DNA of 63,994 bases, counting the filler, from Intoshia linei (taxonomy: Eukaryota; Animalia; Orthonectida): the NCBI GenBank assembly GCA_001642005.1. It is 12 parts of 12 records of this genome, joined end to end, with 100 filler letters (N's around TTAATTAATTAA, not from the genome) between each part and the next. Parts side by side here need not be neighbours in the genome. Positions count along the whole stretch, not along the records: positions 55,424 to 56,842 come from LWCA01002626.1; 11 more parts are not named here. One strand, written 5' to 3'. The notes beneath the pieces were generated by a model that was not told where the DNA came from, searched no databases, and saw only the letters and a program-made list of their open reading frames with translations. A program made the translations under genes and the position numbers. Of the stretch, positions 1,088-60,335 are shown in pieces. How positions within the stretch are numbered: the first letter of the stretch is position 1; every line of letters begins with the position of its first letter.

Positions 1088-2536
1088 TTATATTTTATTT
1101 CCCAAATTGTATTTGAGTAGAACGTATTCAGCCAAATTCTCTGCTTTGAAATTTCTTTCTTTAGCATTGATTGTATGCAAAATGGAAAATCTCCTTTCGA
1201 CACTAATCGAAGTTGCTTGACACATGAGTAGTTTTGCATATTGGCTGGGTGTTATATCTTCCCTTATTAAATGTTCTATGCCCTTAATGTCACTGTTTAT
1301 TAATCTTTTTTCTACATATAATTTAATACTCGCATGATTCCTTTTGAAATTTAAATTATTTAAATCATCAATAGCGTCAGAAATTGTGTATTTTACTGAG
1401 CAAGATTGCTTTATAAGAGTATATAAAAAATAGTAATTGTGCATAATATCTACTAATTCTCTACATAAATTTAAATGATTGACAGCAACTTTGACTTTTG
1501 ACACTATTGCTCCATCTGTTTCAAATGCATCAACAATATTTTTTATGTATAAATAATATTTTGAAAAATATTCAATAACCTTTAACCAATCACCAAACCT
1601 TGTCTTGCAAAAAGTTGGATGTAACGGAATATTTTTAAATAATTTATTTCTTGCTTTAGATTTTGATAGTGCCAAATTCATTGATATAACTAAATTATTA
1701 GCATTTTTATAATATGATGCTATTTTGGCAGACATATTATGGTACAAATGAACCACACAGGTAACGTGAAACAAATTTTTGAATGCAATTTCCACATTAT
1801 TCTCCAAAATAAATTTTTCATATTTTAATTTTTCACCACCGAGAACCATATATGAGGCAGCATCCGTTATAAGTAGAATAAAATTATTTGGATTGAGATT
1901 AAAGGAAGATATAACACCACAAATTTTATTTTTCACGTAAATATTATTTGGAAACGACTCTAATATATCACAGCAGACTAAGTAAGAAATTGAAGGTTTA
2001 CTGGCTAGACCTATATTTACATTATATTTTATATTATTAATCATTTACCTATTAAAAATTGGAAAATTTTTCACCGTTGAGATTAGTTTCATCTACTATC
2101 ATAAAAAACTAAACCATTAGATAAATAGTCCTTTATTATATTTAAATTATTCTGGTATAAAGATTTTTCGACGGACCGCATTGACGTTTCAGAAGGAATA
2201 GGAAATTTCATATGATCAAATAATTTTTTCATGTTTATTTCGTAATTTACTAAAAGGAATAACCGCTGATAAAAATGCTTTCCCCAAAAGACATTTAAAA
2301 TTATCATCTGTGCATGATTGGACGGGCTGCACAATTATGTTGGATAAGTGAGATTGTGTCTTTAGGTAAGCATTGATATTATAGTTTTTGGCACTGGAAA
2401 TTGTTTTGTTACATACCCTACATAAAAGTTCTGAATCGGGTAAAACTAAATGACATTCATGACTCTCGCAAGCTAATTTTATCCGTTTACGACGATTGGT
2501 TTCTTTTAAACAAGTATCAAGACTACTGTTTTGCAT
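1088..2536 (-). pseudogene. hAT-family transposase (CGGBP1/DUF659-like), frameshifted into three ORFs
   Basis: N-terminal BED-like zinc finger CRVCNK...QSH in ORF 2216-2536; ITDAASYM, HVTCVVHLYH (CxxH), TRFGDW and TSISVERRFS hAT motifs in ORF 1088-2044. Confidence 0.85.
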
Positions 2537-2878
2537 TATAAATATGTGGATTTTAATTTGAATAACTAATAATAAAAATTGAGGTGATAAAGCGTTAAAA
2601 TCACAAAATAAATAAAAATTGATAACGTAAAACTGAAAATTGTCATTTTTGTCAATAAACAGTTACTGTATTTATGTATGTCACGACTCGCGACCACCGG
2701 TTGGAAAGCACTGATATAATGTAATAAAATAGTCCGTAAATGAATGCACAATAGTATTTACACAATATAATATTATATATATATATTATAATTATTATAT
2801 ATATTATAGTTGCACAATAGTCCATATATGAATGTACACTAGTATTTATATACATGTTATATATATTATATAAATGTA

Positions 2879-4177
2879 AACTGCACCGCAAAACTATGTG
2901 TAAAATCCAATTTTTGCAATTAAATATATTTATTAAACTTATAATTATATATTTTGATTTACATTTTAATATAATACTGATTATTAACTTATATTAAAAA
3001 TTTTGAGAAATTCCATTAATAAATTAACTAAATAACTAACAATTAAAATTTAAACTTTGAAATATGTGTCTCAAAATTATGTGAAAAACGCATAAAAGAT
3101 ACAAAAAAAATAATTTATTTATATATAACAACAATTTTAATACTTGATTATAATTCCTCCTGTTGCTTCTAACACTTCGACCAATCTTGAGGGAAATGAT
3201 TCTACCAATTTTTTTATTTCCTGTATGTCAAGGGCATCCCATATACATTTAATTTCTGCCTTTAATTCAATATTATTATGATACACTTTAGTTCCAGGGT
3301 ATAGTCGACGAACCATTATAGCCCAAAGGTTCTCAATAAGATTGCAATCAGGACTGTATGGTGGCCAATCAAGAAATTGTATGTTATTTTCACGTATAAA
3401 CTCCATACTTTTCCTGCATCAATATAAAATCGTTTTGATAAAAAGGAAGATAGGATTTGGTCAATATGTCTATATATGCATCTGAATTTACATTTTGGTC
3501 GGTAAAATAAATAGATATGGTACCGTTTAATCCTATTCCTGCTCATACCACAATGCTTTTCGAGAATAGTTTTTTTCCGAAAAATTTTCAAATTTGTAAC
3601 CATTTTTAGCCAAAAATCTAATTTTTTTTGATAATATAATTATATATATATATATTACCTGTACACCGTATCTTTTGAGACATTGAGATTCAAATTAGCT
3701 ATTAAACGTGCTGCAGTATGAGAATCATCTTTTATTAGTTCAAGGCAAATATGCCTTTTCGTTCTATCATCAAATAATTGAGACTTCTCAGAAGGTAATT
3801 TTTTATGCAGTTATATGATCTCCCTAATCTATCTACAATTTGGCCAATAGGTACCTTTTCTTCGGAAAGAGATTGTATTACACCTTGTTCAAACTCCGAT
3901 AATAAGTTACCACGTTTTGGCATTTTAAAAATAAGTTTCTATGATAATAAACTCAATTAAAAAAATATAATTTCACATAGTTTTGCGACAAAAATTTCAG
4001 AATTTAAAATTGAATTGTTAATTATTTAGTTAATTAGATGATAAAATGTGACGAAATTTTGCATATTAGTTAAGATTCAACGTCATATTGACATGTCATG
4101 ATAAGAGTTAATTTAGAATAATATAAATATATTTAATGGCAAAATTTGGAGTTTGCACATAATTTTGCAGTGCAGTT
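2879..4177 (-). mobile_element. Tc1/Tc3-like DNA transposon, decayed, long IR/DR-type inverted repeats, TA target duplication
   Basis: TA-AACTGCACCGCAAAACTATGTG ... CACATAATTTTGCAGTGCAGTT-TA; inner repeats near 3065 and 3975; HTH ORF 3735-3923 and WPPYSPDCNLIENLW catalytic motif in ORF 3137-3406. Confidence 0.92.
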
Positions 4178-7079: not shown

Positions 7080-8145
7080 AATAAAAATAACTGAATACAA
7101 CCGAGTTGTCAACAGATAAATTATCTTGTTCCGAGTACTTTCGAGTAAAAACGATATTATTTAATTTTGAACAATTTTAAAAGAAAAATGAGTAACTTCG
7201 TTGTGAAATTGAATAATATAATTCAGCCAGATTACAATAAATTAGTCCAGAAGATGAACACTCATAATGATGTGTGGGTGTTCGATCAAGTTGACGTTAA
7301 TGTTGTGACCGTGTTAGATGCTATGACAAATAATCTTGTAAGTACATCATATGTCTCAATAACGTTGTTACCGTTACTGTTGTTTACAAATGCCGCCCAT
7401 GATGCGACTACCAAAATGATCGGAGTTACAGATGTGAATGATGTTAATATTGATTTCATTTTCGAAAACGACACGCACAATGGGTATACAAGTAACAAAA
7501 AAGATTACGTCTTATGGCTCAATTTCAAACCCTACATGTATGACTCATCAAACACAATATATTTTTTGGAAATTATAAAACAGTGTGGTGGAGCGATCAT
7601 TATAAAGATTGTAAAAAATGAAAGAAAATTTGAAGATATACCTCGGCACATCCTATTGGATGATGGAGTTTTGATTTTGGCCCCAACTGTTAATAGTTCT
7701 ACTGGATCAATCGTCGATCGAGCTTTTATTCTGAAAAGAAAGAAGTTTGACTGACTAGTTAGTGCAATATGTGGTTCTGAAGATGATTACGGTAAATTAG
7801 AGAGAACCATCCAAACGGTAAGATAACCACATACACATTATTGCTAAAGAATTGAATAAAGATTCTACCGCCGATATACAAATAATAAGTCAAGCTCTTT
7901 TATTATATGTAGAAAGACTTAACTTATTTACGAAAAAAGCTATCATTGTCGACCGCAAAAAATTCTTGGTACAGAAATTAAAAAATCTGTTACGTATCAG
8001 CGTCAGTGGTATTATGTTAAACGGGATATCTAACACCATCTTAAAATATTCGAAAGTGTACTGATGAGAATGAAAATAGCAACTTACAGGGTAGACAAGT
8101 TAGTACCCGTTGTATCTGAACTAAGTCTTTTCGACGCAGTTTATG
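7080..8145 (+). pseudogene. Endogenous viral element: alpha-like (virga/nege-like, Martellivirales) methyltransferase/capping enzyme C-terminal region, decayed
   Basis: ORF 7167-7754 has VFDQVDVNVVTVLDAM...LPLLLF, IDFIFENDTHNGY, YFLEIIKQCGGAIIIKIVK, matching in spacing the tobamovirus-type LHSIYDI...LLL / FSFASESTLNY / YMKEF..WFCKF blocks; no introns; reading continues through stops and frameshift (IISQALLLYVER). Confidence 0.65.
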
Positions 8146-44402: not shown

Positions 44403-45667
44403 ATTATTCTGCAGATCGTTAAATGATTACACGACGGGAGAGGCAATTTTTCTAAAGGTGTATGAATTTTTCAGGTAGTTCTGTCTTAAATGGAATAATT
44501 TCATTGGTATTTGTACTGATGGTGCAGCTGCAATGACTGGTAGACTGAATGGATTTTATTCTAAAGTTAGACCAACGTGTATTAATCCTATTAATTTTAC
44601 ACATTGCATGATTCACCGAGAAGGGCTCGTCTCTAAGAAAATTTCAGAGGATTTGAATTCTGTTTTACTAGACTCCACTAAAATCATTAATTTTATATTA
44701 TCTCGCGCCCTTAATACGCAAGTTTTTGCAAATTTATGTGATTCTATGAAGTCTAACCTCAACTCTTTATTAACCTTTACTATTATTGATATACGGTGGC
44801 TTTCAAGAGGAAGAGCTTTGAAACGTCTATTAATGTTAAAAAGTGAAGTTATTCTATTTTTCTCGGAAAATAACAAAATTAGGAAAATTTTTACAAAACA
44901 GAAATTGGATGTGGAAATTATATTATTTGTCAGATTTATTTGAAAAATTAAATGAATTGAATATTTCACTTTAAGGAGACCATGCTAATATTTTTAAATT
45001 ATTAATAAAATCTAAAATTCAGGACTTTATAAACAAATTAATATTATGGAAAAATAAAATTGAAAAAAATCTATATGAAATATTTTCTGATACAGAAAAT
45101 TATATTGCTGATAATGCATTGAATATGGATTCTATTAAGGTTGTAATTATTGAACACTTACAGAACTTACAAACCAACTTCACAAAATATTTTTTACCGG
45201 AATTAACCAATAATAAATTTGATTGGATACAAAGTCCATTTTTCGATGAAATCAGTAATGTTGATCACTTAGAATTAGAGATACAAGAAGAATTTCCATC
45301 TCTATCAAAAATGGCTATAACTATTCTTCTTCCGTTTTCTACCACTTATCTAGATGACTCAGCCTTTTCAAAGATGACCGAAATAAAAAAAAAATAGCGT
45401 TCCAGTCTTAAGGATATAGAAATGGTTCTAAGACCAACAATCACAAAGATTAAGCCTCAATTTAATTTATTATGTAAAAAGCAACAATTACGTACATATC
45501 ATTAAAATTTATATAATTATTTTTATTTTATTGATAAGCGTTATTTTCGTGTCTTCATTTCCAATCACTGTGTACATTTTTAGGCTACCAACTTAGTAGT
45601 TTTTTTAATAAAATGTATATTATTTTGATGAACAGGGGTCGTGAGTTAAAAAGTGTGAGAAGCCCTG
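44403..45667 (+). pseudogene. hAT transposase (Buster/FAM200/SCAND3-like) with right terminus
   Basis: CTDGAAAMTG, HCMIHRE, RWLSRG, PFSTTY; ends GAGAAGCCCTG. Confidence 0.9.
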
Positions 45668-49500: not shown

Positions 49501-52500
49501 TAACTTATATCTTTATTTTTCATTAAAAGATTAGTAATAGTGAATAGTGGCATTTTATGTAAGATTTTATGTTTTTGGTACAATTAGAAAATTCCACCCT
49601 CGGCGGAGCTAGGTGTCAGAGCTGTAAAAAAAAGCCAAGATGGTATGTTTATAATATACATTTAGGTTATACAACAACCAGATATTGTGAAAAAATTGAC
49701 TAATGAATCTTTGAAGCAAATGCTATTAAACGAAATGTACAATGTGGGATATATTTATCAAATGTTTTTATTTTTTTAGGAATTATGTCATTATCTTGTA
49801 CAAAATTTTGAAATTTTTGTGACTTGGTGTTGTAGATAAAAAGGCATTATAATTGCGACCCAATTAAGGTTTACAAGTGTGCGTTTCTGAAATTTTATAG
49901 AAAATCCCCAGGTGTCCGCATGGACTACATTGAGAATATCTGTTTTGGTCTACAAATATTACTTATTAAAACCCATCAGGGCAATGTAATTAATTTGCGG
50001 CACTTTAAATTCGTGTAGATGTATAGTTATCGAATATGATTCTTTTGAATTTTTATATATTTAGGTTTTGTATCGGAATAATGGAAAATGATGTTGAATT
50101 GGAATTGCTGACTTATATCAATCCAATAAAATCAATTATTCAAGGATTTTTTAATACAATTCGTAAAAAAGATAATATTAAGATAAAGAATATAGACTAT
50201 ATTGAAGAGTCGATATGGTGCATGGTTTACGGTATTCGTGGTAGAATAGACATATCTGCAAAAGGTTACATGGATGGAGAATGTGAAATGCTTAATATGG
50301 CAATTGAATTGAAATCAGGAAAAGCTACATTTTCTTCTGAACATGTAGGACAAGTTTTATTGTACATATTGCTCATGTCGTTCAAGAGAAATGTAAAGTT
50401 GGAGTACGGGTGGCTTAGCTATATCAAACATAATTTAACCAAGAGTGTAAAATTTAATTACAACGTAATTAAAGGGTTGATGCAGACGCGCAACAATTTA
50501 ATAAAAAATTTTAGTACAACAAATTTACCAAAGACTATAAACATTGAGAGACAATGTACACGATGTTTCCAGAAAACAGCTTGTGCGCTTTGTTATTACA
50601 ATAAAGAGGAGGAATCTGATGGTGAAGATTTTTTTGACTTTGAGGAAGAATTACCCAGTTTTATTGACGATTCCGTTACTCATTTAAAAAAAAACGAAAT
50701 TAAATATTTTAGTAAAAAATATGAAATTCTTAATTATGAAGAAGAATACAAAATATCAAAATATAACCCAAACAGAATCTGGACATTGTCGGCAGAAGAA
50801 TGTGAAAGCCAACAAACGTGCCTCAGTAATGTAAAAATAGATTTTGACAAAAGTTTTGCCTTAAAAAACAATTTTAATAATTTCAATAAACTTGTGTGCT
50901 TTACGCGGAGTATCGATTTTGATGGAGCCACTCAATCTACAGATACTCTGGATCATTCCATGTTGGGTTGTGAATCATTGTTACATGCTGGATTGTGTGT
51001 GAAAGATCCAGTAGTAATCAGCGTTCAAAATTCTATAGTAAATATTTGTATAGCCAACGGTTTCATTGATACGGTTGAAGATGACCAATTGACAATTTTA
51101 TGTACTGATCAATTTTATAAAAATTATAGTGACAACACTATATATCGAATAGATAAAATTAGTAATTATTTCGATTCCATGAAACGAGACATTTCTTACA
51201 TTTACTTTTTAATGTCTGACAACGTCAAGAGTTCTCGACTTAGAAAATTTTTAATCCATGATGAAATTCCACAGTTTTCCGATTCACGTGTATTCAATAA
51301 AATGATGTCTACCCAACCGATATTACAGAAATTATTCGATAGTTTAAATAAATACCAACAAAACGCTGTTCTAAAAGTATTGGCATGTAAGGATTATGCT
51401 TTAATTAATGGTTTCCCGGGGTCCGGGAAATCCTATACTATAATAGTTTTGGTTCAAATTTATCTACTTGTTTTTCCTCAGTCAAAAATTTTAATTTCAA
51501 GTTGCACTAATGCGGCAATAGACAATATTCTGGAAAAATTTAACGAGGTAGATCAAGATTATTGTAGAATGGGATATTCTGGATCAAATGAACAAATTAT
51601 GAACCAGAGTTTTGCAATTTTAACCAAGAATATTAAAAGTGTCAAAGAAATGAAATTATTTTTTGATAGACAACGAGTTGTAGCTTGCACGTGTTTTAGT
51701 TTGGTCAATAATCTTATTCATTTGTTTCCCTCTGGTTTGCAAAATTTACAAAACAATGATTCATACTTTTTCGATCTTGTTATTCTTGATGAAGCCACTC
51801 AAATTTCGGAATCTCTTTCCGTTGGATCTCTTCTGATGGCAGAAAAGTTTGTTTTAATTGGGGATGTACATCAATTACCACCTATTGTTTCTTCTCATAA
51901 AGCAAGTCAACTCGGCATGTCGGTTAGTTTATTTGAACGTCTCACTAGAATTGAAAATAATCAAGCTACAGTTAGTTTAAATGCTCAATACAGAATGAAT
52001 AGGTAAATATTATCGGAAATTAGCCCATTTGATGATCAGTGGTGACGGATCAGTTTCAGGGTAGTCTTTATTTCTTTGGAAAGTTATTTCTACATTTTAT
52101 ATTTTAATTATTTGATTCGATTTAGAACTATCATGAGTATAGCTAATGATCTCATATATGAAAACTGTCTAGTTTGTGGAAATGAAACTATTGCTAATCG
52201 AGTGTTACCTAAATTGGACGTTGATGTATATTTTTAACAATTAAATGTAAAAGTTTTTTAAATGGGTGTGTAACAATTTTTTAAAAATTAAACTTAGAAG
52301 AACATTTAAGGTCAATGTTTTTATTGTCACATTTAAATTTTTTATTGATTTTAAAAGGAAACAACAAGGCAAAAAAAATAATACCACTATCTTACCCAAA
52401 TTTTTTATACATACATACATACATAAAATCGCATACACATACGGGTACCCACGGGTACATATACTAAATAATACCCTTTCATATTTAAATTTGATTTTTG

Positions 52501-53769: not shown

Positions 53770-55811
53770 GTTTAATATACATTTAAGTCTACTTATAATA
53801 TTTTAATTTCTAAAATAAGTAATTAAATCATATTAATTTAACAGCAGTACAAATTAATTTATAAAATACTTTTCTTTTATTTTTTAAAAAAAGGTAATTT
53901 GTGGTTTTGATGGTGAAAATACACTTTTTGAGGTTGTGATTTATGGTAATGTTTATAATTTTAAAATCTATACAACAATTTATGTTGTACAAAATTCTAG
54001 GAGTTTTTTCATTTTCACAAAAAAGTGTAATTTGAAGTTTTTACAGTAAAGATATAAGATTTTGAGATTTAAATGTATAATAATGTTGATGATTTTAAAA
54101 TCTTTATCAGATTGTGTATTTTTTATAATTCTAGGATTCGTTTGAATTTAAAAAAAGGATAATTGGGTTTTTGACCTTGGAGGACTCAATTTATGAAAAT
54201 GAAATTTGCAATAAAACATCACACTCCAAAAACTGTATTAGAAATATGGAATTTTTAAAAATCGACTCGATTTTATTAAATAAATAAACAGACATATATT
54301 TTTAACTAAATTACTTTATATACTACTGCAGTGGTATCTCTCAATATTGATCACTTTTAACGAAGATATCCACTTAATGTTGTCAATTTTAAAGTCCTGG
54401 TACTCCGTAAATTCATAAAAAATGCACTATATCAAATTTGATACATTCGTGACGAAAGGGATAATATGAGAATTATAAAAATTACATATTTTTTTAAAGC
54501 GGTAACTTTTGAGATGTTGCGACATTAAATGCCAACTATTTTTATGAAGGGTCGTTTTAGATGGTAATTTTTGAGAGCGACCACTGAATAAGAGAATGAT
54601 CTTGCCACATTTCTCGATAAAAATCAAAATAAATTTAAAATTTTTTTTCATTTTGTATATGTAGGTCGTGAAAGTTATCAGTATCATTGTCAATATAATG
54701 GCAGTGTAATAGATTTCTTTTTTTAGTTTAGTATTTATACTTTTTATGTTATTGATTTATTAATTGTAATTGTATATTAGAATCGATCCATCATTTCAAA
54801 TTGTCGTAATTATTTGGAATCAAGTATTGTTTCTACCATTGTTGCTAATTTTCTTAAGGTTATTTTAAATTTCCTATATTTCCTGATTTGATTAAGTTCC
54901 TGAGACAATATTGTATTATTATTATACAGTTCCAAACCTACTGTACCCAACAACCGTCTTTTGTGACCTCGAAGAAATTTTTGTAAACTGGGGCGTCATT
55001 TTTCCAAATTAATATGAAAAAATTATATTCTTGAACATCATAACTATTTTGTGTTAAATTTAAAATTCCAAGTCAAGAGTCTTGGAGAGGTTGATAGGGT
55101 TCTTAGTTAAATTTTTATAAGGGTTAAATTTTCAATTTCAGTAGTATCTATCTTTGTAGATTCTGCTCTACAACGATATGTAGATTTTATTAATGTTTAG
55201 ACCTTAAAATTGAAACTTAAAACTGTCAAATTGTACAAAGTATTGATTATATATTATTACTATTAGGTTATTCACAAAGTAATGTCGTTTTTATAACTAT
55301 AATTAAAACTTCTATAATAACAANNNNNNNNNNNNNNNNNNNNNNNNNNNNNNNNNNNNNNNNNNNNTTAATTAATTAANNNNNNNNNNNNNNNNNNNNN
55401 NNNNNNNNNNNNNNNNNNNNNNNCTAAATCTGTTTGAAGAATCATGTCTTGCTGGCTTGGTTCGGCTTCATCTGCACAATCCTCTTATATCATTTTTTTC
55501 ACTTTCTTCATTTGTTTTATCGGCTGTGGCAATATTTTCAATCTATATGTATATTAACAAAACTTATATTAGTATTCGGAATCTTGCAATCTATCAAATA
55601 AAATATGTTCAAACAAGATCTACATTATATGCAGTCTATATGAATAGTGAATTTAATCAGAATAAAATGTACATTTGTGCCGTAAAAGTAGTAGTACGAA
55701 TGGAAATGGAGTAACAGACCACAAACGCGTCCATTAAGTAAAGCAAGCAGCAAGTAGTTTGATTTAAGTTGTTACTGTGAATCAGGTAATGCTGGAAAAA
55801 TCAATAACATA

Positions 55812-56842
55812 TTCATGCATTTACACGAACTACATTCACTATCTTCGCTTTCTTATTTTGATATTCATGAACTGTGGAAACATCAGCACCAGTTCACTGT
55901 TTCAACAATTTCTTTTCATGATGAGTAAATGTCAAGTATTTAACATCATTAACGGTTGGCACACTAAACAAGCCTGATATTTTTATGACAAAACATGAAG
56001 AATATACTTCATGTGCGGATTTTAAGATTGAATCGAAACCAAAATCATGATGCAATCTGTTGTAAGAGGGGATAGACGATATATAACATCAACAGGACAT
56101 CTATAAGACAAAGATAGCACCGAAGTTATTTTAATAAGGTTAGGTAATGATGCATATCTGAGATAAAAGTCTGGTAGTCTAGTGACAAAAGGAATTTGCA
56201 TAAAATCACCTACAAAATATAAATCAGTAGTACCACACACAAACGCACAAAGCAATAAAGCACCAGGATGTGACATCAATGCCTCGTCAAAATACATCTT
56301 GTCAGTTCTTTCAACATCATTATTGTTCAATAAATAAGATGCGACTGTTCTTACCAATTTATTCTGCTTGTGTTTACTCAAAATTGGTATTTTATGGTAT
56401 TGATTCATGCGATTTCCCACGTCATCTCTACCCTCACATGTATTCACAATTATAGTATCAACTTTTTCACCATTCATGATAGAGTTAGCATTACTAATAA
56501 TGTGTGTGGTCTTTCCTGTGCCTGGTACGGCTTGTATAAATGTATATTTTACATCATACAAAGTCGGAAATGTCAAAAATTGACGTACAATGTCTATCTC
56601 CATTCCTATTTCACAGTAATCGTTCACCGCACATAAGTCATCTTTGAAAGTTCCTAGTTTCGAAAAGTCATGGAACTCATTCTTTGAGAAAAATTTGCTA
56701 TAGTTGGGTTTTATTTCTTTAGGTTCTAAAAGGTATATCATAAAGTCACTACTAATTTTGAATAAAACATAATAGCTTAAAATGTACCATTATTAATATA
56801 TTTCCTTATTCTATTTGGTAAATAGATTTAAGTCTAATTTGT
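55812..56842 (-). pseudogene. Endogenous viral element: virga/nege-like superfamily-1 RNA helicase (Viral_helicase1), decayed
   Basis: AVPGTGKT (I), RTVASYL (Ia), FDEALMSHPG (II), GDFMQIPF (III), SYRCPVDV (IV) in ORF 56022-56741; after disruption KYLTFTHHEK..*..TVHEYQNK.A..V.VVR (V) at ~55815-55960. Confidence 0.92.
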
Positions 56843-56942
56843 NNNNNNNNNNNNNNNNNNNNNNNNNNNNNNNNNNNNNNNNNNNNTTAATTAATTAANN
56901 NNNNNNNNNNNNNNNNNNNNNNNNNNNNNNNNNNNNNNNNNN

Positions 56943-57590
56943 TGCTAAAGAAGACAATCTCTGACTAAGCATTCTATTTCTACTGAAAGATTTTATTCGC
57001 TTTAAAGTGGAAAAAGATTTTTTCACCGAAACAGTTGTTGCTGGAATGGTCAATATTAACTGTAACAGTTTCACAAAAAGTTGAGTTTAGATCGTTTTCA
57101 AATATGAAAGTAAGAAGATCTTTAATAGATTTCGATTTTAGCATTTTGCAATTGTAAATCCCAACTAGATCACTTTTCAATCGCAGGACATCAAAAAACT
57201 GACCATAATTATGCTCTAAACAATTCAAAGCTAATTTGTCCATTTGAAAAACAATATTAAAATTTTTAATGGGGCTTACAGAAATAAACCTATGTTCCTT
57301 GAAGTGTTCGAACCTCTGATTTATTTGTTGACATACATTATCGAATATAAATAAAAAAATTTGTTTATTTTCTTGTCTGTTGTCTTTATTATTTCTAGAT
57401 TTTTTTTCAATGAGGTTGTTCTTTTTGGAATAACAATTAAAGTTTTCATATATGTCATCAAAATGGCTTCTTAATAATTGAAGTGATTTGTTGGTAACAT
57501 TTATTTTTTCAATACAATACGATATATCTACAATTTTTGTTTGTAACACGTTGAAAAGTGTATCAGTTTTAAAAAAAATTATTAAAGTAT
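56943..57590 (-). pseudogene. ZMYM1-like hAT transposase C-terminal fragment
   Basis: TDTLFNVLQTKIVDISYC, IFDNVCQQINQRF, YGQFFDVLRLKSDL, frameshifted TIPAT..ExxFSTLKRIK dimerisation motif. Confidence 0.85.
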
Positions 57591-58778
57591 ATTAGTAGAG
57601 TAAGTAAATTAAAGTAAAAAGTATTAGCAGCCTCAGGTGAGACAATATCTGATATTAACTGTACCTGTACTTTCCATTTAGCGCCAAGAGCAGCATATGC
57701 TGGTTTTTGAAAATAGGGAAGATCCATCTCTTCAAGCATATCTCCTTGTACATCAATTGTACGAGTAACTTTTAAGTAATTCATACCAAAATCAGTACTA
57801 GATGATGTGGCAAATATTGCAACACGAGCAGCTATCATTGCGGAGGCACTAAAATGAAAATATAGCTTTACACCACAACGAGAACAAGCAAACTATTGAG
57901 CCAAATACCTACCAGGGGTATAAACACTACTGCCAGCAAAATTATTTGAAATAAGTAAATTAACAGTAAGATCTAAGGTTTTGTCTGTATTAGAGAAAGT
58001 TTTCCAGGTATAAAATGTTGGTATCGCACCAATAGCTTCTATAGACATGTCTTCTTTTTTATATCTATAGGAGGTTGTTTATCATCGGCCCTATAGGATA
58101 AGGTCAAAACATTTGAAATACCAACTGAATTCGAAGTAGAATAAGCATTTCTCGCAAATAAGGCAGGACCCGTTTCAGACCGAGGGTGGGAGGGGCCTAA
58201 AAAAACAACCAAGGATATAAAATTATATGCATGACCTACAAAAGTCGTTATACCTCCAAGGATAGAAGAAAAAGTCTCAGACCAAGTACCAGTCAATTTT
58301 TTTTTTCTCCTGATTATCCATAAGCCAAATGTAAAAGATACTCTTTAGTAACTTTAGTAGGCTCATCATCTGTTATAAGTTGCTGAAATAGCAATCTGTC
58401 TATTTATTTCATCAATATCTTCTTCTTCATCCATCTCACTAATTTCCGAATCTGATTGGCCCAAGCAATAGCAGCATTTGGACCAATCTCCGAAAATTTA
58501 TGATACGAGAGACCAGTTTGTCCAAGATAGCCAAAAAGACGGACATTAGAGATACGCGCCCAAACTAAAATTTGAGGAGAATCAATATCTGAAGGCTCAA
58601 TTGGAGTCAATCTATAAAGATCAAATAGGCTGAATTTACTAACATCGGAAATCTGATTGCTTGTAAGGTCAACTGGGGAAGCAGTAATCTCATAATGTGT
58701 AAGGATCCAATTGTATGGATAATGCCCACTAAGACATATGCCAAATTTGCACATAAAAATTTTAATATTTAACCTCAC
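57590..58778 (-). pseudogene. Endogenous viral element: picorna-like (dicistro/marna/ifla-type) capsid polyprotein VP2-VP4-VP3, decayed
   Basis: VP2 end (HYPYNW, LYRLTPI, ILVWARISNVRLFG); VP4/VP3 junction-like LGPSHP (cf. GF/SKP); VP3 EDMSIEAIGAIPTFY, YLAQ*F..RCGVKLYFHFSASAMIAARV, TIDVQGD...LPY, VQLISDIVSP; at least one stop and frameshifts. Confidence 0.85.
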
Positions 58779-59959
58779 NNNNNNNNNNNNNNNNNNNNNN
58801 NNNNNNNNNNNNNNNNNNNNNNTTAATTAATTAANNNNNNNNNNNNNNNNNNNNNNNNNNNNNNNNNNNNNNNNNNNNGTATAATAATTATACAAATTAT
58901 ATATTAATGTATACTATATTTATATATATCTATCTTGGAACTTTTAGAAACTTCTTTCCATTCAATAAAAAGCGGCAATGCATTTGATATCAATGGATCC
59001 ATTACTGTAACTGGGCAGAGTTTTGAATTTTCAAATTTGCATCCCTTGTAAAAAATTGTCTGTTTAACAAGTGATTCATTTTAATCATGGCTATTTTAGC
59101 CGTAATGATAGCTCATATCGGAAAATCGGATATTATACTTATAATTTGATTTTTAAAATTTCAGCATGTCAAAGCTCAAGTAGTCTTTATCTACTAACGT
59201 AAAGCTGCCAGATTAAAAACGTACTCATTACTTAGTTACAAAATTATAATGTTGTATTGGAATTTTAAATGATTTCACATTATTTGAATTAATCGTATAC
59301 CATAGCGTATTATATTTTAAAAATTATTAATGTTTATTATAATAAACTTAAATTTTTAGTACGCTTTTATCAGTGCTGCCTAAAACGTACTTCTAGCAGC
59401 TTTAACTAACGGTGCATTGGTACACTATAATAACACATAAACATTTTCTTGAAAATATACAAGTTATATTTTGCAATTGTAATGTAACATTTGTTAATGA
59501 ATAATTTTTACGAATTTAATTTAAATAATGCTTTTGTAAAGAAAGATTATTCATTTTATTTAACGAAAAACATTTACACTACAAATATTCAAATTTCGAT
59601 TAGGATTCATTATTATAATTTGTTACTTTACCACCTTAAAATTTTTTCGAACTTATGGTTATTGAAGCTATTCAAGTTTAACCCTGTTTCATAAAAATTG
59701 AAGATAACACTATTTGTATAAAGCTCCAATAATTTATATACATTTTTAATAGAATTAGAAGTCTCTTTCACAAATTTAATTGCAAACAATCGATTCTTTT
59801 TTTAACTTATGATTATTATTACAAAACTTATTACCCCCTGAATTCTCGTATTATTGTAATCGATTATATTATTTTATAAATATACATTAGATCAGTGTTT
59901 TCAATTTGGCGCACCAGAATAGAATTAAAAAATAGTTTTATATTTGTTGGGTTATTGAA

Positions 59960-60335
59960 AGTATTTATAGAGTATAAGATTTTGCAAGGAAAAGCTGCTA
60001 ATTTAAGAAAAAACAAAAATATTTCATGAATTTATAAATAAAATGTAAATAATAATTATCAATTTCAGTAATAAATCAGAAATTTACATTGTACATTTTG
60101 AAACAGAAACGAAAGTTAATCGATTAAAAAATTCTAGTTTATGTTCTGCCCTAAAATATAAGACAGGGTTTTCAACTGCTGCGCGATAGTATGTTTAGAG
60201 AAAAATTAAAAACAAGCTATAAACCATTTCACAAAAGGTTATTTACATCCGATTTTTTTTATTTTACAATTCTATAAATAAATATTGTGGCTATACAGAT
60301 CATATGTTCAATGTTGATGAAACAGCTACACTTCA
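59960..60335 (+). pseudogene. pogo/Tigger transposase remnant
   Basis: YTDHMFNVDET catalytic-D motif and degraded HTH upstream. Confidence 0.65.

What the first reader, a model, noticed from the sequence alone, without database searches (positions are those of the whole stretch)
55812..56842. Fossil virga/nege-like RNA virus helicase
Seen: SF1 motifs I-IV in a 239-aa intronless ORF, and motif V (TVHEYQ..A..V.VVR) further on behind a disruption and an in-frame stop; motif VI is absent, replaced by unrelated sequence at ~55810. Known: RTVxSYL, DEALMxHPG, GDxxQIPF and SYRCPxDV are characteristic of Martellivirales replicases rather than cellular UPF1/DNA2 helicases. Inference: endogenised +ssRNA virus fragment.
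Basis: partly seen in the sequence, partly recalled or inferred. Interest (0 to 1): 0.75.

Follow-up and report, generated by a model that had tools for sequence, protein, structure and literature searches.

The report
Negevirus-like helicase fossil in orthonectid genome
A broken 913-base piece of a negevirus-like RNA virus helicase gene sits inside the DNA of an animal that is likely the orthonectid parasite Intoshia linei, and is likely a dead fossil of a past virus infection.

Summary
The viral piece is 55814-56726 (minus strand, 913 nt). Contigs of two samples carry the empty site, joining 55813 to 56727. The ORF's ATG and first five codons therefore come from the host flank. The piece has helicase motifs I-V, a frameshift, a stop and no motif VI. 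It hits Viral_helicase1 (47 bits) and groups with nelorpi-/centiviruses (99/94; best hit Wuhan insect virus 8, 40%). Grouping with LINE-borne helicases (p 2e-9) or Virgaviridae (p 3e-5) is rejected. The only close protein is a second copy annotated in Intoshia linei, so the host is likely that orthonectid. Further copies, about 93-94% alike, differ in a neutral pattern (9 of 24 changes synonymous). Verdict: a dead, multi-copy endogenous viral element, likely placed by break repair. The kind is known; the virus lineage and host group look new. The window also holds a viral methyltransferase-like ORF and a probable picorna-like capsid relic. Viral RdRP genes in I. linei were already noted in passing (PMC6396948).

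The parts
55814..56726 (-). 913-nt virus-derived insert: internal piece of a negevirus-like replicase ORF1 (pre-helicase linker to helicase motif V)
   Evidence: Joint 55813>56727 skipping 913 nt in runs X1 and X2; viral tblastn hits span 55804-56771, alignment overhang included
56070..56726 (-). Open frame with helicase motifs I-IV (219 aa)
   Evidence: PF01443 47.3 bits against a cut-off of 21; PDB 3vkw replicase large subunit E 1.4e-9; 37-39% to nege-like ORF1s
56064..56070 (-). Frameshift region just after motif IV
   Evidence: Homology passes from one frame to another here
55816..56064 (-). Second frame with TFT motif and motif V; the G that follows E[FYV]Q in 22 of 22 natural rows is replaced
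   Evidence: tblastn 41% over 82 aa to L023; profile 65 bits and G count
55894..55896 (-). In-frame stop before motif V
56022..56741 (-).
55610..55813 (.). Left flank: host segment that also exists without the insert
   Evidence: X2 contig of 3392 nt matches with 10 other letters; X1 holds both forms
56727..56842 (.). Right flank: same host segment, 20% GC, up to the gap
   Evidence: X2 contig matches with 4 other letters; X1 record 8 (56269-56769, 0 differences) bridges this junction

Best explanation
This is a broken, multi-copy endogenous fragment of a negevirus-like RNA virus helicase gene, likely reverse-transcribed into the germ line of a likely orthonectid host, then likely copied into this host segment by DNA break repair, and likely without protein function. 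Shown: the viral ancestry, the insert's edges, the empty site, the lesions and the further diverged copies. Inferred: the reverse transcription step (recalled knowledge of non-retroviral EVEs; no RT was found in the window), the break-repair step (internal piece, no target duplication, no poly(A), two target letters replaced), and the DNA-level spread from an older EVE (neutral-like differences between copies).
For: PF01443 above cut-off. The 18 nege-like rows used in the trees score 141-194 bits, the best virgavirus 124, LINE-borne helicases 84-97, and host DNA2 gives no hit at E<=10. Tree group of window plus nege-like rows: 99/94 under LG+G4 and 96/93 under a mixture model. AU tests reject a clade with LINE-borne helicases (p 1.7e-9) and with Virgaviridae (p 3.1e-5). 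The empty site stands in 2 of 4 runs laid, from two samples. X2, a second sample, holds 56060-56242 with 0 differences. Copies in X1 differ by 9 letters in 139 and 15 in 223, plus indels. Of 24 substitutions, 9 are synonymous against a neutral share of 0.287 (p 0.37); a share of 0.7 is rejected (p 0.001; the 0.7 is my benchmark). No end-to-start repeat of 3-12 nt between the flank ends. A second copy is annotated in the Intoshia linei proteome, 66% over 148 aa.
Against: The host rests on one paralog label plus 26% GC and animal-type genes; no host gene was searched. The left junction is not bridged by any record shown (12 records were hidden). X1 may be the assembly's own source. The window's branch is long (1.0-1.6 changes per column), and inside versus sister to the nege-like group is unresolved (p 0.24; 52/95). 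The reference set was seeded with a motif of the query, and no row was identified as a sandewavirus or flatworm martellivirus. The 3392-nt flank contig could not be read, so capture inside a retroelement is not excluded. Whether the empty form is a duplicate locus or an allele is open. The substitution count is small and may mix two or three copies.
Confidence: 0.8

Rival explanations
1. The piece was captured directly from viral RNA at this site, by template switching during reverse transcription of a retroelement to which the flanks belong.
For: The flank lies in a 3392-nt X2 contig at depth 138.5 against 3.5 for the viral piece, which would fit a transcript if X2 is RNA; its kind is not on record. 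Chimeras of retroelement and viral cDNA are recalled from mosquito work.
Against: In DNA run X1 the empty form has depth 15-16, not the depth of a many-copy element (weak measure). Six LINE polyproteins hit the window only at the helicase. Differences between copies look neutral, which fits spread as DNA.
Confidence: 0.1
2. The copies are kept as templates for antiviral small RNAs (piRNA-type), as described for arthropod EVEs.
For: Several copies; further virus-like pieces in the same window among transposon relics; X2 holds short pieces of two copies at low depth. This can be true together with the best explanation.
Against: No small-RNA data. The flanks of this contig are not shown to join the neighbouring contigs. 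PMC12147562 reports a strong reduction of Tudor genes in Orthonectida (passage). The sequence drifts neutrally.
Confidence: 0.12
3. Assembly chimera, or contamination from an insect or a live virus.
For: The contig is only 1419 nt and sits between linker-type gaps; named relatives are mostly arthropod viruses.
Against: A live RNA virus would not carry a frameshift and a stop. An X1 contig bridges the right junction with 0 differences, and a second sample holds the same letters. A paralog is annotated in the same likely species.
Confidence: 0.04
4. A LINE-borne, domesticated viral helicase as in insect TRAS/Jockey elements, or a pseudogene of a cellular SF1 helicase such as the nearby DNA2.
For: AAA_19 and AAA_11 hits; a DNA2 gene lies about 4 kb away; LINE-borne helicases align at 30-34%.
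Against: AU p 1.7e-9 against a clade with six LINE-borne rows; no RT match in the window; motifs are broken, whereas PMC5563155 reports a full motif set (abstract); DNA2 gives no BLAST hit.
Confidence: 0.03

Closest known systems
[quoted passage not shown]
   Same: Helicase and the linker before it align at 31-40% over about 300 aa; same tree group
   Different: Only a 913-nt broken piece in host DNA; long branch; likely marine non-arthropod host; RdRp, ORF2 and ORF3 not seen
[quoted passage not shown]
   Same: Internal fragment, decayed, several copies, transposon relics in the window
   Different: Host likely in Orthonectida; the empty site is seen directly; no small-RNA evidence
Intoshia linei A3Q56_07606 (OAF64678.1, P0001)
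   Same: Same virus lineage: 77% over 100 aligned columns, 100/100 support
   Different: Another locus; covers more upstream sequence, stops after the P-loop region and runs into a weak zf-BED-like tail (E 0.04); annotated only as hypothetical
Viral SF1 helicase domains in insect TRAS/Jockey LINEs (PMC5563155, abstract)
   Same: Martellivirales-type helicase in an animal genome
   Different: Those are intact, fused to LINE ORFs and from another branch; clade rejected
Viral-family RdRP gene(s) of Intoshia linei noted in PMC6396948 (passages)
   Same: RNA virus sequence in the same likely genome, read as horizontal transfer
   Different: The paper's text names neither helicase nor virus family; Fig 1A could not be seen, so whether that RdRP is of the same virus is open

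Membership tests
Viral superfamily 1 RNA helicase (PF01443) | Score above Pfam gathering cut-off | tested here: met
   47.3 bits against 21
Viral superfamily 1 RNA helicase (PF01443) | Motifs I-V in order (motif numbering recalled) | tested here: met
   motif V altered and behind a frameshift and a stop
Viral superfamily 1 RNA helicase (PF01443) | Motif VI and one open frame (working enzyme) | tested here: not met
   Insert ends at 55814; frameshift and stop. It is a relic of the family, not a working member
Negevirus group (nelorpi-/centivirus) | Helicase falls with the group | tested here: met
   99/94, 96/93
Negevirus group (nelorpi-/centivirus) | Nested inside the group or in Centivirus | tested here: inconclusive
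   With the two centiviruses 95/98 but 52/95; exclusion not rejected, p 0.24
Negevirus group (nelorpi-/centivirus) | RdRp phylogeny; ORF2 (DiSB-ORF2_chro) and ORF3 (SP24) as in relatives | not testable with these tools
   No such hit in the window at E<=1e-3; the rest of the genome is not held
Virgaviridae | Helicase in one clade with 14 named virgaviruses (plus P0004) | tested here: not met
   AU p 3.1e-5
Non-retroviral EVE | Joined to host DNA, with an empty site | tested here: met
   Right junction bridged in X1; empty joint in X1 and X2; left junction not among shown records
Non-retroviral EVE | Decay under relaxed selection | tested here: met
   Frameshift, stop; 9 of 24 changes synonymous
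Non-retroviral EVE | Inherited in the germ line | tested here: inconclusive
   183 identical letters in a second sample; fixation and inheritance not tested
LINE-borne SF1 helicase (TRAS/Jockey) | Fused to LINE ORF with RT, intact motifs, same clade | tested here: not met
   the unread flank contig remains a gap
Cellular DNA2/UPF1-type helicase | Closer to cellular than to viral helicases | tested here: not met
   AAA_11 below cut-off; no BLAST hit to the window's DNA2; other cellular helicases were not put in the tree

The most novel reading that the evidence does not exclude
The orthonectid genome is a dense archive of +ssRNA virus fossils. One 64-kb window holds relics of a negevirus-like helicase, an alphavirus-supergroup methyltransferase and a picorna-like capsid. 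They would record an undescribed, long-branch negevirus lineage that infects Orthonectida, integrated more than once, and may still circulate or feed a small-RNA defence.
Probability: 0.35. Interest if true: 0.65.

Novelty: new member of a known kind. Interest (0 to 1): 0.48.

Why it matters
It gives a named virus lineage for an animal group for which my searches found only a passing note on viral RdRPs. It extends the negevirus group, known mostly from arthropods and lately flatworms (PMC12581222 passage), to a likely marine orthonectid. The empty site and several copies make age and spread testable. The helicase gives a bait for a live virus in orthonectid RNA. As a mechanism it is ordinary: a decaying EVE.

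Tried and rejected
Idea that the insert rides in the 3' end of the hAT transposon on the next contig: not supported, since the 3392-nt X2 contig was not among the records shown on 56943-58778 (31 were hidden) and no bin there reached its depth. Single-protein locus search in viral contigs: 2 pattern hits, 0 relatives. Word-based protein searches with the fragment alone found only P0001, 1 of 275 and 1 of 699 candidates. Metagenome scan: 15 relatives of 53 stretches, none above 39%. ESM Atlas gave generic helicase clusters for the fragment and only hits under 0.9 for the 7149 ORF. Rfam: 0 hits in 54000-60000. No RNA holder was listed among the runs; this says nothing on expression. X4 laid nothing and X3 only the left end. 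Residues 1-225 of P0001 did not match a profile of nege-like upstream regions, although pairwise hits start at residue 173. Pfam and PDB gave nothing for the capsid-like or methyltransferase-like pieces. The full HMMER search of protein representatives and the fold prediction never ran because the machines were busy, so closer relatives may exist. Earlier scan notes: none. Five long-branch rows were dropped between the 75-row tree and the 70-row tree; the mixture tree used 45 rows without P0001.

Full report
Observation. The finding lies on a 1419-nt contig (55424-56842) between two of 11 gaps of the form N44-TTAATTAATTAA-N44. Such gaps look like a linker (recalled), so neighbours across them are not proven. 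The minus strand holds a 239-aa ORF (56741-56022) with helicase motifs I-IV. After a frameshift near 56064-56070 a second frame holds a TFT motif, a stop (55896-55894) and motif V; motif VI is missing. Pfam Viral_helicase1 scores 47.3 bits against a cut-off of 21. The only PDB matches are two sequences named replicase large subunit, E 1.4e-9 (recalled as tomato mosaic virus). A profile of 22 natural viral rows scores the ORF 204 bits, the best of 1000 shuffles 7.8.

Edges. Laying public contigs on the stretch shows a joint from 55813 to 56727 that skips 913 nt, with two other letters between. It stands in DNA run X1 (depth 14.9) and in X2, a second sample and study whose kind is not on record (3392-nt contig, depth 138.5); X3 and X4 do not show it. 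The viral piece is thus an insertion into a host segment that also exists empty. The empty form differs from the window's flanks at 14 of 320 letters. X1 record 8 (56269-56769, 0 differences) bridges the right junction. No shown record bridges the left one, with 12 records hidden. The ATG and first five codons of the ORF are flank sequence. No end-to-start repeat was found between the flank ends and no poly(A) is seen at either end.

Copies. X1 holds diverged copies over 55864-56003 (9 other letters) and 55982-56214 (15 other letters plus indels). One contig leaves the window's sequence at 55817 and one at 56298; what they run into was not tested. X2 holds 56060-56242 with 0 differences. Of 26 substitutions listed inside the insert I classed 24, leaving out 2 at a break; the tool hid 4 further rows. 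Nine are synonymous, against 0.287 expected by chance (p 0.37) and below my benchmark of 0.7 for purifying selection (p 0.001). The copies therefore likely diverged as junk DNA. The only close protein is Intoshia linei A3Q56_07606 (66% over 148 aa), encoded elsewhere since it matches the window only at 65%. No record is shown over 56336-56719 beyond the window's own copy at an 80% threshold. That may mean a separate integration of a related virus, but the filter can drop records.

Host. Likely the orthonectid Intoshia linei, from that label, 26% GC and animal-type genes (DNA2, DGK, an Rrp6-like exonuclease, vWA, SURP). No host gene was searched and no genome is held.

Virus. A motif scan gave 31 viral loci. 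An alignment of 22 of them with the fragment fetched 80 of 104 viral loci, 15 metagenome loci and 109 proteins. Read through with X at the breaks, the fragment scores 194 bits (40% over 303 columns) to Wuhan insect virus 8. The 18 nege-like rows used score 141-194, the best virgavirus 124 and LINE-borne helicases 84-97. The top relatives have the three-ORF plan with DiSB-ORF2_chro and SP24. In a 70-row tree the window and P0001 form a long branch inside a 20-row nege-like group (99/94), next to Wuhan insect virus 8 and Wuhan house centipede virus 1 (95/98); PMC7154061 calls these centiviruses (passages). A mixture model keeps the group (96/93) but not the exact place (52/95). AU tests reject a clade with LINE-borne helicases (p 1.7e-9) and with Virgaviridae (p 3.1e-5), and do not reject a place just outside the nege-like group (p 0.24). 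The reference set is biased towards the seed motif.

Mechanism. Shown: viral origin, insertion, decay, several copies. Inferred: viral RNA was reverse-transcribed by a host retroelement and entered the germ line (recalled knowledge); a 913-nt internal piece was then likely patched into this segment during break repair. No working helicase can be made from this locus. The carrier was not shown to be the hAT element next door, and six LINE polyproteins hit the window only at the helicase. A retroelement in the unread flank contig, and a small-RNA role, remain open.

Surroundings. Of 463 viral queries, 5 hit outside the insert, all at ORF 7149-7754. A methyltransferase-region profile of 50 replicases scores that ORF 32 bits, the best of 500 shuffles 4.9. 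On the next contig, about 57580-58725 interrupts a hAT relic. A profile of 48 picorna-like capsid stretches scores one frame 9.5 bits against -0.1 for the best of 500 shuffles, with sub-threshold hits in the other two frames in the right order. That profile was chosen after I saw the motif, so this is probable, not shown.

Prior work. PMC6396948 (passages; supplements searched with 0 hits; figure not visible) notes viral-family RdRP genes in I. linei. Searches for Intoshia with virus, RNA virus or endogenous viral elements, and orthonectid with viral, listed no title or abstract start describing this element (for negevirus EVEs and annelids). PMC11097642 covers Orthonectida among its 31 phyla, but the passages read name no virus for it; its supplements could not be read and may bear on this. 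Negevirus-group sequences are reported from flatworms (PMC12581222 passages), as are 14 Martellivirales (PMC9241645 passages). PMC5563155 was read as abstract and outline, PMC12147562 as one passage. Subscription journals are mostly outside the library.

Verdict. A real, dead nrEVE: a new member of a known kind, of interest for its virus lineage and likely host. Interest 0.48.

Noticed in passing
window 7149-7754 (+): Open 201-aa frame without a Pfam hit that matches the methyltransferase region of Martellivirales-type replicases (profile 32 bits, best of 500 shuffles 4.9): likely a second RNA virus relic. The ESM Atlas holds it from residue 36.
   Followed up: partly
window 57580-58725 (-): GC-richer stretch inside a hAT relic, on one 1237-nt X1 match at depth 18.6, with a 79%-alike relative in X1. 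Broken frames resemble a picorna-like capsid (9.5 bits against -0.1 for shuffles).
   Followed up: partly
window 56943-57580 (-): Decayed hAT transposase end with dimerisation domain; many diverged copies in X1, X2 and X3.
   Followed up: partly
window 55610-55813 and 56727-56842: The flanks belong to an unidentified segment of at least 3392 nt that is deep in X2 (138.5) but shallow in X1 (15-16); possibly a host transcript.
   Followed up: no
window 55424-55543: Short repeated stretch at depth about 65 in X1 and X2, about 93% alike; unidentified.
   Followed up: no
window 50027-52006 (+): Cellular DNA2 helicase-nuclease about 4 kb from the insert; it also passes the Viral_helicase1 cut-off (27.9 bits), a trap for screens by that family alone.
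   Followed up: yes
P0001 (OAF64678.1): Predicted Intoshia protein that joins a nege-like replicase piece to a weak zf-BED-like tail; likely a gene model running from an EVE into a transposon.
   Followed up: partly
window, 11 gaps from 6937 to 61756: All long gaps read N44-TTAATTAATTAA-N44; contig order across them may be arbitrary.
   Followed up: no
window 1088-2662, 3137-3418, 44479-45397: Further DNA transposon relics: DUF659-like, DDE_3 and hAT-like pieces.
   Followed up: no
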